DNA from: Callorhinchus milii
Lineage: Eukaryota
DNA length: 64,000 bases
Direction of reading: 5' to 3'
Assembly: GCF_018977255.1 (NCBI RefSeq)
Contig: NW_024704747.1
Span: 25,854,001 to 25,918,000, forward strand
Shown: in pieces, positions 58,901 to 62,500 of the stretch
Layout of the letters: each line of letters starts with the position of its first letter
How positions within the stretch are numbered: position 1 is the stretch's first letter
Program-made: the position numbers

Positions 58901-59503
58901 TTCCTGCGTGTCCCAAACCAGGTGAAGGTTCCGTGGTTTCTACCAGTCAAATACGATTTGTATTTAGGTGAAAACGTTCCACTTCACAGTCCAGAACCAC
59001 CTGGATTTACCGGTTGTTGAACACGGAGAAGTTTCTTCTCTTTCTGTCGCTGGTTTTGGAACCATATTTTCACCTGAAGAGAAGATCGGATCCTTTGAAA
59101 ACAAGAACTCTCACACCACAACATTACAACGGATTTGGTTTTTTTTTTGTGTGTGTTCAAATTAATATACCCACCAGTTGGTAATGAGCAGGCACGTTTT
59201 TTTTAAAGAGAAAAAAATAATTCTGCAAATCCAATATGAAAGCTTTCTTACCTGCCTTTCCGTTAAGCCTAACTTCAACGAAATGTTTAATCGAATTTCA
59301 GGGGTGAGGAACCGATTATTTTCGAATGCCTTTTCCAGTTCGGTGATTTGTAGTTTGCTGTAAGGGATCCGCTTTTTTCTTTGTCTATTTACCTGGTTCT
59401 GCGACGTTGACCATTGAGAAGCAAATCCTAATGCTGAGGAAACACAGACATTGATCATATCTTAATTTATCTCGGCTAAAAAAAATGAAATTCACTCCTA
59501 TCT

Positions 59504-59535
<32 letters not shown>

Positions 59536-62500
59536 TTTGTCTCACACATTCAATACGTATTTTATTAAAGAAATAATATCGTTGACTAACTTTTTAGAAA
59601 ATGTTATTGACAAATGAATCTTCAATTATATTTGATGTGACAGCAAAGACTAATATCAATCGTTTCCAAAGTATTCAAAAAATTGGAGTTTAATGGGATG
59701 CGTAATTAATGTAAAAACTTTATCCAGTACCATACTTTACACTATTTTTTCTGAAGACTTACGTTACGTTTCTTTTTTGCGATTAGATCTTTAACATTTT
59801 GACAAATATTTGATGTGAATTATGTGGATATTTAATTGTGTTGTACTTTAAAAACAACTGATCGTGTTCAGTAGACTTTGTGAGAACTGTAATTATTTTA
59901 GAAAATTATTTACTGGGACTTTTTCTTTACACAAGAATAACAACACTAGTAACTAGAAACAGCAAAAATAAATATCTACGGATATAAAACACAAGCAAAG
60001 GTAACAGAAAAAACAAAGGCCCGGATGTTGTCAGACCTACTTAATGAAAATCCTGGAATTATTTCATTTCCGGATACACATTACAAAGATTATTTGAAGT
60101 GTTTAACTGATACAGAAACGTAGGAGAATGTTGTTGTCAGACCGACCTAAAGCCCTTGAGACACTGGGCATTGCAGTGTTGAATGCTCCTCCTGAAATAG
60201 GTGCTCCATAGTACTGAGAGTGGCTAAAGGCAGACGTGCCCAGACTGTTGTGATCTGTTTGGTTCTGCACAGGTGCAGCCCGGGGATACTCTAAAGGCCA
60301 GTGCTGATAAATTTGGGTGCCTGTGGGATATTCACCTCTTGTGCACGGGTTGTGGCGGTGGCTGACAAACGAAGATATATGACTGTCGCTTTGAAACTGG
60401 TTTGGAGCGATTCGACCTGCCTCAGGTGACAGAGCAACTATCTCCCGTTCTGCGCCTCCGTACGATCCGCAGGTCGCAATATCTTCGGGGTACAAACCGT
60501 GGCACCTGCCACTCGCTGTGGCTTTAAAGGACGGGGGAATCATAGAAGAGGAAAATCCAAAATTAGTAGAAAGTACTGGTATCATCTCCATAGGCCGAAT
60601 TCCATCCTGGAGTGTCCCGGTTTTATCGCTAGATGTCTCTAATGTCAGCTTGTACTGCAGAGCGGTAGAATCCATCCGACAAGTGAACTAAAATACTCCC
60701 GTTTGCTTCTGTCCGCTTTTAAAATAAAACCTGCCTGAAGTTTCTTCTGTCGTTACTTGTCGGCGTAAATTCCTCTTTGTCCCAAGTTTTGAGAAGGAAA
60801 TGCGTGCACAGGCGCTGAGCAAACAATTCAACCACCTAGAAATGGCGCTGGGCTATCCATTAAGTGTACACACTCACCCTGATCCAAACTACCTGATCTT
60901 TTTTATTGCCGTAACTCTACTGCAGTTGGTAAATAGAGCACAGTGTAGACTCTTTGCAAATTAAACTTTGGTGAACAAACGTCAAGGACACGACTGGATT
61001 ACAGAAGGGCACAGTTGTACTGTAGCTATTATACTCTTTCCCCCAAGGTCAATGCTGGCTTTTGAGTTAATTTCATACCCATTTGCACTTTGAGTTCCTC
61101 GTATGACTTTTCTCCGGGTGATTTTAAGTTGCATTTGATTGTTCAGTGCATATATTTACAAACAGGATGTTTTAATTAGACTTCTGTACCAGGAACGCTA
61201 ATTTGGATAAGAATCGTGAACTGGAAACTGGAATAAACCTTCTTCGTGACATTGTAACTTGCGTCAGACAAAAAGCATTTAAGGCGCTTTTATTGCCTGC
61301 TATAACCCTTAATGCTTTAGAATTACACCTCGCGGCACATACATTAGACGATCGAACAAATATTTAGTCTATTGCAGTAAACCTTCTTTGAGCTGGGTAA
61401 AGTGAACTACTGCCATGTAATGAAACCTAGTTTAATCTGCCCGTTTACCTTTGTTTTTTACCAGCTTTGTGACTACTCGGTCTAATCAAAGCTTTCCAAA
61501 AAGTATTACAGGTAATTAAAGATTGGATGACTGAAAGTTTAGATTTGAAAACGCTACAAATTATTTTCCAGATGAATACGCCTCGCCACCGACTATGTAT
61601 CAATGGTAGCTTCATTAATCGATATTATGGCAATGTCATAGACTAGAGGACTGATATCATTCTGAAGTTTGAAATCTGTCAGCAATTAATCTTTGACCTT
61701 CAACACACCGATTCAATTCATGCAGTACATCGAAACGAGTTTCAGTAGGCTAAATATTAACAAATTTATTGAACCAAAATGTTAAATTCAATCTTCATTT
61801 TCCCCTTAGGTGTCAGTCTGAGTCAATTGGTGGCGCTCTCACCTCTGGTTCGGAAGGTTATGAGTTCAAGTCCCACATGGGGACTGTTGAGTGTGCAGAC
61901 TAGATTGGCATTCCAGCGCAATGTTGGGGGCGGACTGCGTTGATGTGGGTTCAGTAAATTGGATGAAATATTAAACTGAAATCCCATCTGCCTGGTTAGG
62001 TCCCATAGCCCTCTTTCAAAAGAGCAGGGAATCTCTCCTACTGCCCTCACCAAACAACCACCCGATTAAAAAATCATTAACTCCATTACCGTTTGTGTAA
62101 TATGGCAGTATAAAAATTGACTGCCTTTCTGGCCTGCAAATGCACACCGTACAGAAAACTATGATGGACGTTGACAGTATAAGTGCTATATTACATGCAC
62201 GTATTTTTATTTTATTATTGCATCTGACCATTGGGGGAGAGAATACATTGCTTAAGGTCTACACGTGTGCCTCGTTTGACAATATCACCTTGCGATCACG
62301 GATACCTCACTGTGCCGCGGCCAAAACGACACCGTTGAACCACTAAATCGATGTTATTAAGAAATCAAATGTTAAAAACATAATTATGTCTATCCCTCGG
62401 GAAAAAAAATGGCCCCGAAACGGTGATGTAAATGAATTCGGTAAATATAGATTCGTTTTACTTTGCGTCTTAAAGTGTTAATTTCGGAAGCCTTGGCTGT

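What the first reader, a model, noticed from the sequence alone, without database searches (positions are those of the whole stretch)
58984..60675. Intact Hoxd14 with an intron inside the homeobox; third exon hidden from the ORF track
Seen: three exons join in frame (529 + 182 or 176 + 90 nt). The homeobox is split between Q44 and V45 by a 178-bp GT-AG intron, and helix 3 reads WFQNQRQKEKK rather than WFQNRR. Established: paralog group 14 survives in only a few lineages (e.g. chondrichthyan HoxD14, coelacanth HoxA14, lamprey), shares this split homeobox, and is absent from tetrapods and teleosts. It is a known rarity rather than a new gene, but it is the most unusual gene here. The R52Q change sits beside the DNA-contacting N51 and may alter binding (inference).
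Basis: partly seen in the sequence, partly recalled or inferred. Interest (0 to 1): 0.75.

Follow-up and report, generated by a model that had tools for sequence, protein, structure and literature searches.

The report
Elephant-shark HoxD14 gene, already described

Summary
Exon 1 is 60675-60147, exon 2 is 59433-59252, and exon 3 is 59073-58984 including the stop. The total is 529+182+90 = 801 nt, or 266 codons plus a stop. The second intron is 178 bp, GT-AG, and lies between homeodomain residues Q44 and V45.

Pfam matches exon 2 to homeodomain profile positions 1-43 and exon 3 to positions 44-57. A Callorhinchus milii database protein is identical to exon 2 (60/60) and exon 3 (29/29).

The gene lies 5' of Hox13-12-11-10-9-8 in the same orientation. 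The neighbouring Hox13 is D13-type.

In a homeodomain tree, PG14 (19 rows) and PG13 (16 rows) are separate groups with support 100/98 and 100/99. Forcing the gene into PG13 is rejected on 60 columns (p-AU 0.011) but not on exon 2 alone (p 0.128).

WFQNQRQK is present in all 21 PG14 proteins examined that have a helix 3, so "R52Q" is the family hallmark and not a change peculiar to this gene. Three exons, the split homeobox and WFQNQR are all in print, and elephant-shark HoxD14 has been reported since 2007.

Verdict: correct annotation of a known gene, of low interest.

The parts
60147..60675 (-). HoxD14 coding exon 1 (529 nt; 176 codons plus the first base of a split codon). The ATG is at 60675.
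   Evidence: Sequence and frame. The exon alone finds 14 proteins, 12 of them named and all of those chondrichthyan, including UniRef 'HoxD14' of Heterodontus at 74% identity and E 2.7e-80. The N-terminus MDST..QYKLTLETSSDKTG is shared with shark and ray orthologues. There is no Pfam family, and this region is predicted disordered.
59434..60146 (-). Intron 1 (713 bp, GT...AG, phase 1). It contains a (TACA)n microsatellite at 59509-59535.
   Evidence: for the sequence; for the repeat. Read-through meets a stop after 14 residues. The boundary is supported by orthologue proteins that read L-A-LGF across it.
59252..59433 (-). HoxD14 coding exon 2 (182 nt). It encodes the pre-homeodomain linker and homeodomain residues 1-44. 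An alternative acceptor 6 nt downstream, at 59427, would give 176 nt.
   Evidence: Pfam Homeodomain E 6.7e-10, profile 1-43 of 57. 60/60 identical to C. milii protein P0004. The 182-nt form fits 11 of 12 full-length elasmobranch proteins; Narcine fits the short form.
59074..59251 (-). Intron 2 (178 bp, GT-AG, phase 0), inside the homeobox between homeodomain residues Q44 and V45.
   Evidence: Read-through gives 29 unrelated residues and a stop. The Pfam profile is split exactly here, at positions 43|44. The junction lies three residues into predicted helix 3.
58984..59073 (-). HoxD14 coding exon 3 (90 nt: 29 codons plus TGA at 58986-58984). It encodes homeodomain residues 45-60 (the recognition helix, WFQNQRQKEKK) and a 13-residue tail.
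   Evidence: Pfam profile 44-57 of 57, 21.4 bits. 29/29 identical to P0004. Its 16 homeodomain residues are 88-100% identical to 18 PG14 proteins, against 62-75% for 16 PG13 rows.
58844..58849 (-). Candidate polyadenylation signal AATAAA, about 135 nt after the stop codon.
   Evidence: Read directly. Its role is inference only; no transcript data were available.
50300..51671 (-). Context: the neighbouring HoxD13 gene. The exon 1 frame is 50931-51671 and the homeobox exon frame is 50300-50632. It lies 3' of HoxD14 in the same orientation.
   Evidence: HoxA13_N domain in exon 1. Exon 1 is 88% identical to shark Hox-D13, against 49% to a ray Hox-A13-like protein and 48% to C. milii Hox-B13a. The homeobox exon's best ordinary hit is Hox-D13 of Cetorhinus, at 93% identity over 100% of the query.

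Best explanation
The region is the intact HoxD14 gene of Callorhinchus milii, or of a chimaera indistinguishable from it at the protein level. It is the most 5' member of a HoxD14-D13-D12-D11-D10-D9-D8 array on the minus strand.

The gene encodes a 266-residue transcription factor. The N-terminal roughly 150 residues are predicted to be disordered, and a homeodomain sits at the C-terminus.

Two introns have to be removed. The second lies inside the homeobox, so exon 3 supplies nearly all of the DNA-recognition helix. Any transcript or gene model that keeps intron 2 encodes a protein without that helix.

Shown here: gene structure, open frame, splice signals, homeodomain completeness, PG14 membership, D-cluster context, and strong conservation across cartilaginous fishes.

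Inferred from orthologues in the literature, not shown for this species: a role in posterior tissues. Reported expression is around the hindgut in catshark and lamprey, and in the posterior fin bud in paddlefish.

Untested: whether the PG14-specific Q52 and Q54 change DNA recognition or domain stability.
For: Structure and frame.

The two homeobox exons match complementary halves of one Pfam homeodomain profile, positions 1-43 and 44-57.

Species: UniRef A0A4W3JBR9_CALMI (P0004) is 60/60 identical to exon 2 and 29/29 to exon 3. It is also identical to exon 1 over exon-1 residues 31-170.

Conservation: 12 chondrichthyan proteins align at 78% mean column identity with an invariant recognition helix. 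Six of the orthologues are exactly 266 aa.

Family: a profile of the chondrichthyan proteins finds 22 PG14 proteins, namely 15 chondrichthyan-type, sturgeon, coelacanth, two lungfishes, lamprey and two hagfishes. The next hit (P0026, 80 bits) is Hox10-like and the one after it (66 bits) is Cdx-like.

Tree of 44 homeodomains: PG14 (19 rows) forms one split at 100/98, and PG13 (16 rows) forms one split at 100/99. With the window's own exon 2 alone, PG14 is 100/100. Forcing the gene into PG13 costs 13.87 lnL with p-AU 0.011 on 60 columns.

Motif: WFQNQRQK occurs in all 21 PG14 proteins with a helix 3, and in none of the other proteins among the 334 stored.

Cluster: seven collinear homeoboxes lie on one strand. 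HoxA13_N, the Hox11 N-terminal domain and Hox9_act occur in the expected first exons. The Hox13 neighbour is D13-type. No Rfam family, and so no mir-196, was found in the 64 kb.

Fold: AlphaFold2 on P0004 gives three helices at 167-179, 185-195 and 199-219, with pLDDT 89-95 over the homeodomain. The exon junction is at 201|202.

Literature (passages read):
- PMC1845163 reports HoxD14 in the elephant shark.
- PMC3707753 says C. milii retains HoxD14 plus A14 and B14 pseudogenes, and that all vertebrate Hox14 genes have a second intron in the homeobox.
- PMC3509897 says all Hox14 genes have three exons and the diagnostic WFQNQR.
- PMC8423624, Fig. 5d legend, aligns the elephant-shark HoxD14 homeodomain and marks the intra-domain splice position.
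Against: No transcript evidence for this species was available, so use of the junctions is inferred from conservation and from one database gene model.

It uses a donor 18 nt upstream and starts at an internal Met.

The exon 1 donor TAG|GTCGGT is a moderate match to the consensus (the consensus itself is recalled).

Exon 3 on its own scores just under Pfam's curated cut-off, 21.4 against 22.9 bits.

The AU test on exon 2 alone does not reject placement with PG13 (p 0.128).

Both trees carry the tool's warnings: few columns and long branches.

No Hox-C13 protein was available. The C cluster is therefore excluded only indirectly: none of the 120 listed hits was named Hox-C13, the literature points to D, and no mir-196 was found.

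Evx2, which should flank HoxD14, is not in the 3.3 kb of window upstream.
Confidence: 0.95

Rival explanations
1. It is a decaying relic (pseudogene), like gar and bowfin hoxd14 or the elephant shark's own A14 and B14 copies, and only looks intact.
For: Hox14 pseudogenes are common. Gar and bowfin hoxd14 are described as pseudogenes (PMC8423624, passages), and C. milii has A14 and B14 pseudogenes (PMC3707753, passage). No expression data for this species were seen here.
Against: There are no stops or frameshifts over 801 nt, and all four splice sites have GT or AG. The start, stop and length (266 aa) match shark and ray orthologues. Exon 1, which has no domain constraint, is still 54-77% identical to the named elasmobranch proteins over 86-100% of its length. 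The homeodomain is 93% identical to catshark. The literature lists C. milii HoxD14 as retained (PMC3707753).
Confidence: 0.03
2. It is a divergent tandem duplicate of Hox13 and not a member of a separate paralog group 14.
For: The closest solved structures by sequence are HOXB13 and HOXA13 homeodomains, at 66 and 61 bits. The AU test on exon 2 alone does not reject grouping with PG13 (p 0.128).
Against: PG14 and PG13 are separate, fully supported splits. The AU test on 60 columns rejects the grouping (p 0.011). Exon 2 homeodomain identity is 73-91% to PG14 but 48-55% to PG13, which is lower than to the window's own D10 at 57%. PG13 lacks both the homeobox intron and Q52/Q54. Exon 1 has no HoxA13_N domain, whereas the neighbouring Hox13 has one.
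Confidence: 0.01
3. The main transcript uses the 176-nt form of exon 2 (acceptor at 59427), or both acceptors are used and give isoforms that differ by two residues.
For: Both acceptors are AG and both keep the frame. The Narcine bancroftii protein reads HL-GF, like the short form.
Against: 11 of 12 full-length elasmobranch proteins read L-A-(L/V/F)G across the junction, like the 182-nt form. So do the sturgeon, coelacanth and lamprey proteins, while the two lungfish proteins read G in place of A. The C. milii model P0004 also uses the 59433 acceptor. The upstream AG follows the better pyrimidine tract.
Confidence: 0.1
4. The gene functionally ends with exon 2, making a protein with a truncated homeodomain, and exon 3 is a chance match.
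For: One database representative (P0193, sturgeon-like, unnamed) ends by reading into intron 2 and has no exon 3. Exon 3 alone is under the Pfam cut-off.
Against: Exon 3 begins exactly where exon 2 leaves the Pfam profile, at 43|44. It follows a strong acceptor. It is 29/29 identical to P0004, and its homeodomain part is 88-100% identical to 18 PG14 proteins. Without it there is no recognition helix.
Confidence: 0.01

Closest known systems
Callorhinchus milii HoxD14 as published (survey 2007, PMC1845163; cluster paper Ravi et al. 2009, not held here; homeodomain alignments in PMC3038165 Fig. 2 and PMC8423624 Fig. 5d)
   Same: Most likely the same gene. The C. milii database protein is identical over exons 2 and 3 and over most of exon 1, and the position at the 5' end of a D-type cluster also fits.
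   Different: Nothing of substance. The UniRef model A0A4W3JBR9 is labelled 'Hox-C11-like', starts 30 residues late, and uses an exon 1 donor 18 nt upstream of the one that the orthologues support. I could not view the deposited 2009 record or paper.
Heterodontus francisci HoxD14 (the founding PG14 gene; Powers & Amemiya 2004, cited in PMC3509897)
   Same: 266 aa. Exon 1 is 74% identical. The homeodomains differ at 6 of 60 positions as I count them from the table, and helix 3 and the C-terminal ...PGL/SGL end are the same. Three exons and WFQNQR are reported for it (PMC3509897).
   Different: It is the orthologue in an elasmobranch and not a chimaera. There are a few homeodomain substitutions, for example L11 against Q11 and L36 against F36.
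Sarcopterygian HoxA14 (coelacanth, lungfishes) and cyclostome Hox14
   Same: The recognition helix VKIWFQNQRQKEKKL is identical, and 35 columns are invariant across 19 PG14 proteins. They fall in the same clade.
   Different: They sit in other clusters (A, or cyclostome clusters). The N-terminal regions are shorter or very different: 38-48% overall identity to the C. milii protein, and the exon 1 search did not reach them.
Paralog group 13 (HOXA13, HOXB13, HOXD13), the nearest group with solved structures
   Same: An Abd-B-class posterior homeodomain with the RKKR-PY N-terminal arm. These are the best PDB matches, 9o6b, 5edn and 2l7z at 61-66 bits.
   Different: There is no intron in the homeobox (the window's D13 homeodomain is in one frame). 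Helix 3 reads WFQNRRVK and not WFQNQRQK. A HoxA13_N domain is present in Hox13 exon 1 and absent here. It forms a separate clade.
Other posterior Hox genes with an intron at the same homeobox position (lamprey Hox13beta, amphioxus Hox11 and Hox14, dipteran Abd-B), as listed in PMC3707753
   Same: According to that review, the second intron splits the homeobox at the same position.
   Different: This was not tested here, because no genomic DNA of those species was available to the tools. They are not PG14 by sequence according to the review.

Membership tests
Vertebrate Hox paralog group 14 | Three coding exons, with a second intron inside the homeobox (PMC3509897, PMC3707753) | tested here: met
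   529 + 182 + 90 nt. The 178-bp GT-AG intron lies between homeodomain residues 44 and 45. The Pfam profile is split 1-43 / 44-57.
Vertebrate Hox paralog group 14 | Diagnostic helix-3 motif WFQNQR in place of WFQNRR (PMC3509897, PMC8423624) | tested here: met
   Exon 3 reads WFQNQRQKEKK. The same eight-residue motif, WFQNQRQK, is in all 21 PG14 proteins that have a helix 3, and in no other protein among the 334 stored.
Vertebrate Hox paralog group 14 | Groups with known Hox14 proteins and not with PG13 in a phylogeny | tested here: met
   The PG14 split is supported at 100/98 on 60 columns using the identical C. milii database protein. It is 100/100 on 44 columns using the window's own exon 2. 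AU against PG13 gives p 0.011 on 60 columns but only 0.128 on 44 columns.
Vertebrate Hox paralog group 14 | Lies 5' of Hox13 in the same orientation, between Hox13 and Evx | tested here: inconclusive
   It is 5' of Hox13 on the same strand. No Evx homeobox or long frame was found in the 3.3 kb upstream before the window ends, so the Evx side cannot be seen.
HoxD cluster (as opposed to A, B or C) | Neighbouring genes are D paralogues | tested here: met
   Hox13 exon 1 is 88% identical to shark Hox-D13, 49% to a ray Hox-A13-like protein and 48% to C. milii Hox-B13a. The homeobox exon's best ordinary hit is Hox-D13 at 93%. Hox12 is present, and I recall that the A and B clusters lack Hox12. No C13 protein was available for a direct comparison.
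HoxD cluster (as opposed to A, B or C) | No mir-196 between Hox9 and Hox10 (recalled: A, B and C carry it, D does not) | tested here: met
   There were 0 Rfam matches at gathering score in the whole 64 kb. This is a negative result and weak on its own.
Functional (non-pseudogene) Hox gene | Open frame, canonical splice sites, and conserved start, stop and homeodomain | tested here: met
   The homeodomain fold is predicted with pLDDT 89-95.
Functional (non-pseudogene) Hox gene | Spliced transcript present in the animal | not testable with these tools
   No read or transcript data for this species were available. One unnamed 1,550-nt record encodes an uninterrupted 264-aa shark-type orthologue (P0011). 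In this window the coding exons and both introns span 1,692 nt, so that record is most simply a spliced transcript, but it is not from this species.

The most novel reading that the evidence does not exclude
The pair Q52 and Q54 in the recognition helix is invariant in every PG14 protein seen here, from hagfish to coelacanth. It may give PG14 a DNA-recognition mode or a domain stability different from all other Hox groups.

Position 54 is a major-groove contact, and R52 normally pairs with E17. Both statements are recalled and were not checked here.

No binding data turned up. WFQNQR occurs in 2 held papers and HoxD14 in 10, and nothing I saw of those papers (listings, and passages of seven of the ten) reports a binding assay. 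No solved structure is named Hox14 among the 60 chains listed. This intact, compact gene would be a convenient source for such a test.
Probability: 0.3. Interest if true: 0.4.

Novelty: already known. Interest (0 to 1): 0.15.

Why it matters
It matters little as a discovery. Elephant-shark HoxD14, its three exons, the intron in the homeobox and the WFQNQR motif are all in print.

It has some practical value for annotation. Public automatic names for PG14 orthologues are scattered: Hox-C11-like, php-3-like, Hox-B13a-like, Hox-D12-like, Hox-A4-like, hhex-like, Hox-C10-like, Hox-B9-like and Hox-C8-like.

One C. milii model is N-terminally short with a shifted donor. One sturgeon-like representative lacks exon 3 altogether. 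The short third exon really is easy to miss, and the gene is easy to mislabel.

The biochemical meaning of the PG14-specific recognition helix is still open.

Tried and rejected
Joined model: the joined three-exon protein was never assembled, typed or searched. Each exon was translated and searched on its own. The database protein P0004, checked exon by exon, stood in wherever a whole homeodomain was needed. A look-up of the exact 266-aa product was therefore not made.

I did not repeat it.

Papers not held: Ravi et al. 2009, Kuraku et al. 2008 and Torrado et al. 2009. What I say about them comes from other papers' passages or from recall.

Supplements are closed. The PG14 trees in the supplementary figures of PMC3509897 and Supplementary Note 10 of PMC8423624 could bear on these claims and were not seen.

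Rfam on the whole window found nothing.

No Evx2 was found upstream.

The AU test on exon 2 alone did not reach significance.

Searches on the role of residue 52 found nothing usable.

The bacterial and archaeal genome collection and the phage, plasmid and E. coli collections were not used, because they cannot hold a vertebrate Hox gene.

No dN/dS could be computed, because no orthologous DNA was available.

Fold search, complex prediction and the protein-atlas search were not needed and not used.

The window was not taken for human. It matches a cartilaginous fish, and Hox14 is reported absent from tetrapods (PMC8423624).
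Full report
**What is in the sequence**

The feature is on the minus strand. Read and re-computed:
- An ATG at 60675 follows an in-frame TAG four codons upstream.
- Exon 1 runs to 60147 (529 nt) and is followed by GTCGGT.
- Exon 2 runs from 59433 to 59252 (182 nt) behind a tttcctcAG acceptor. A second AG 6 nt further on would give 176 nt.
- Exon 2 ends CAG|GTAAGA.
- After a 178-bp intron (59251-59074) that ends cttctcttcAG, exon 3 runs from 59073 to 58984 (90 nt, the last three being TGA).

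Both exon 2 lengths keep the frame. The long form gives 801 nt, or 266 codons and a stop.

Without splicing the frame closes quickly: after 14 residues in intron 1, and after 29 residues in intron 2 with no helix 3. Exon 3 sits in a stop-to-stop frame of only 72 aa, so an ORF display with an ordinary length threshold would not show it.

The window has no N and is 39% G+C. It was not taken for human.

**Exon-by-exon evidence**

Each exon was handled on its own.

- Exon 1 (176 aa) has no Pfam family. It finds 14 proteins at E <= 1e-3 among 42 candidates. Twelve are named and all of those are cartilaginous fishes; two are unnamed. The best is a C. milii protein (97% identity over 82% of the query). 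A 266-aa Heterodontus francisci protein that UniRef names HoxD14 scores E 2.7e-80.
- Exon 2 matches Pfam Homeodomain at E 6.7e-10 over profile positions 1-43 of 57.
- Exon 3 matches positions 44-57 at E 2.2e-4 and 21.4 bits, just under the 22.9-bit cut-off.

The C. milii protein P0004 (UniRef A0A4W3JBR9, 230 aa) is 60/60 identical to exon 2 and 29/29 to exon 3. It is also identical to exon 1 over exon-1 residues 31-170. After that it differs, because the model uses a donor 18 nt upstream, and it also starts at an internal Met. The window is thus C. milii or something indistinguishable from it at the protein level.

**Which exon boundaries are right**

Shark and ray orthologues begin MDST.LQYKLTLETSSD, like the window's ATG at 60675. 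They end ...GL where the window ends.

The twelfth, Narcine, reads like the 176-nt form. Sturgeon, coelacanth and lamprey proteins also carry the long form, and the two lungfish proteins have G in place of A. The 182-nt form is therefore the conserved one.

**Family**

A profile of 12 chondrichthyan proteins (A1) found 68 proteins at E <= 1e-5 among 4601 candidates. Twenty-two belong together:
- 15 chondrichthyan-type
- Huso huso
- Latimeria
- Neoceratodus (named 'HoxA14 homolog')
- Protopterus
- Lethenteron
- Myxine
- Eptatretus (named 'HOX14I')

The next hit, P0026 at 80 bits, proved to be Hox10-like. After that came Cdx-like proteins at 66 bits.

In the index-free search of 1.84 billion representatives, a profile of 19 named PG14 proteins (A2) gave 16 hits at E <= 1e-30. 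Five were single-stretch matches spanning most of the profile (P0009, P0022, P0023, P0025, P0193). The other 11 had 2-10 matched stretches, meaning several homeodomains in one fused model. None of those 11 carries the PG14 helix-3 motif. PG14 is a small and sharply bounded family.

**PG13 or PG14**

The tree used 44 homeodomains of 60 columns:
- 19 PG14 rows, with P0004 standing for the window
- 15 named non-primate PG13 rows (5 D13, 5 A13, 5 B13) plus the window's own D13
- the window's D8-D12
- one Hox10-like protein
- Hox-C1a
- two Cdx1 proteins as root

Rows left out were P0011 and P0013 (unnamed; P0013 has no homeodomain), P0017 (a shorter isoform model from the same genus as P0014), and P0037 (a chimeric D9/D8 model). 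No C13 was among the 120 listed hits.

Results:
- On 60 columns, PG14 is one split at 100/98 and PG13 is one split at 100/99.
- On columns 1-44 with the window's own exon 2 translation, PG14 is 100/100, while PG13 is no longer one split.
- Holding the gene with PG13 costs 13.87 lnL with p-AU 0.011 on 60 columns. On 44 columns it costs 13.75 lnL with p-AU 0.128, which is not a rejection.
- Both trees carry the tool's warnings about few columns and long branches.

Identities point the same way:

| Piece | PG14 (n=18) | PG13 (n=16) |
|---|---|---|
| Exon 2 homeodomain part (residues 1-44) | 73-91% | 48-55% |
| Exon 3 homeodomain part (residues 45-60) | 88-100% | 62-75% |

**Cluster identity**

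Seven helix-3 motifs lie on the minus strand, at 59064, 50362, 43109, 34548, 23239, 16540 and 8563. The matching first exons carry HoxA13_N, the Hox11 N-terminal domain (DUF3528) and Hox9_act.

For the Hox13 homeobox exon, the best ordinary hit is Hox-D13 of Cetorhinus, at 93% identity over 100% of the query. The two higher rows are fused multi-homeodomain models. Hox13 exon 1 is 88% identical to that D13, 49% to a ray A13-like protein and 48% to C. milii B13a.

Rfam finds nothing in the window, and so no mir-196. The cluster is therefore D. C is excluded only indirectly.

**The recognition helix**

Three unrelated proteins have other Q52 variants. Position 52 is R in 328 matches. Position 54 is V, M or A in 307 matches and Q in 24.

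Q52 and Q54 are invariant across the 19 aligned PG14 proteins.

From recall, not from any call: position 54 contacts bases in the major groove, R53 contacts a phosphate, and R52 commonly forms a salt bridge with E17, which is retained here. The paper I recall on that salt bridge was seen only as a title in two reference lists and is not held.

**Fold**

AlphaFold2 on P0004 with the 19-row alignment gives mean pLDDT 58, but 89-95 over residues 161-210. There are three helices, at 167-179, 185-195 and 199-219, and the first roughly 150 residues are below 50. The exon 2/3 junction (201|202) is three residues into helix 3, so exon 3 encodes almost the whole recognition helix.

The nearest solved structures by sequence are HOXB13 and HOXA13. 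The top row is a tandem engrailed construct. None of the 60 listed chains is named Hox14.

**What is already known**

- PMC1845163 (passages): HoxD14 is among the elephant-shark Hox genes.
- PMC3707753 (passages): C. milii has 45 Hox genes and retains HoxD14 plus A14 and B14 pseudogenes. Vertebrate Hox14, lamprey Hox13beta, and amphioxus Hox11 and Hox14 share a second intron at one homeobox position, the same as in dipteran Abd-B.
- PMC3509897 (passages): every Hox14 has three exons and the diagnostic WFQNQR. Paddlefish has a HoxD14.
- PMC3038165 (passages): its Fig. 2 aligns exon 2 of elephant-shark Hox14. Lungfish has HoxA14.
- PMC8423624 (passages): its Fig. 5d aligns the elephant-shark HoxD14 homeodomain with the splice position marked. 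Gar and bowfin copies are pseudogenes. Hox14 is absent from tetrapods and teleosts.
- Expression: around the hindgut in catshark and lamprey, and not in neural tube, somites or fin folds (PMC5054437, passages citing Kuraku 2008). Posterior and collinear in paddlefish fin buds (PMC4778128, passages).

The searches found 2 papers for WFQNQR, 10 for HoxD14, and 29 for Hox14 since 2017. What I saw of them reports no DNA-binding measurement for a PG14 homeodomain. I saw only listings and passages, not whole texts or supplements.

**Verdict**

This is a correct hand annotation of a known gene. It is intact, conserved, and structurally typical of its rare paralog group. The only open point of some interest is what the invariant Q52/Q54 helix does.

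Noticed in passing
database proteins P0004-P0025: Automatic names for Hox14 orthologues are inconsistent and wrong by paralog group: Hox-C11-like, php-3-like, Hox-B13a-like, Hox-D12-like, Hox-A4-like, hhex-like, Hox-C10-like, Hox-B9-like, Hox-C8-like, nob-1-like. Only three records carry a Hox14 name: Heterodontus in UniRef, Neoceratodus and Eptatretus.
   Followed up: partly
window 60147-60170 versus P0004: The C. milii UniRef model starts at an internal Met, 30 residues late. It also uses an exon 1 donor 18 nt upstream of the one that 11 elasmobranch orthologues support, which drops six residues.
   Followed up: yes
P0193: A 220-aa sturgeon-like representative ends by reading from ...LTERQ into intron 2 and has no exon 3. 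It is an example of the third exon being missed by gene prediction. P0013 (184 aa, unnamed) likewise reads into intron 1, and its first intron-encoded residues resemble those of the window's read-through (GQSDD against GRSDN).
   Followed up: partly
window 53847-54380: G-rich and GA-rich tandem arrays (periods 7, 13, 21, 28 and a (GA)27 run) lie in the HoxD13-HoxD14 intergenic region. Similar poly-G/poly-P-coding runs appear near 10.1-11.5 kb and 18.1-18.4 kb.
   Followed up: no
window 59509-59535 and about 48772-49059: A (TACA)n microsatellite lies in intron 1 of HoxD14. A similar four-base repeat shows up as a HTYIHTYI run in a frame downstream of HoxD13. AT-rich arrays lie at 58125-58231, just 3' of HoxD14.
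   Followed up: no
window 1-64000: There is no Rfam family at gathering score anywhere in the 64 kb. No further homeobox lies in the 8.4 kb 3' of Hox8, as expected if the next gene of the D cluster lies further off.
   Followed up: partly
P0037, P0072, P0073, P0192-P0202: Several public gene models fuse neighbouring Hox genes. One example is a bird 'HXD9' with a D9 N-terminus and a Hox8-type homeodomain; others hold 2-10 homeodomains. Such models outrank true relatives in profile searches.
   Followed up: no
window 60395-60688 (+): A 98-aa stop-to-stop frame lies antisense to HoxD14 exon 1. It is most likely chance and was not examined.
   Followed up: no
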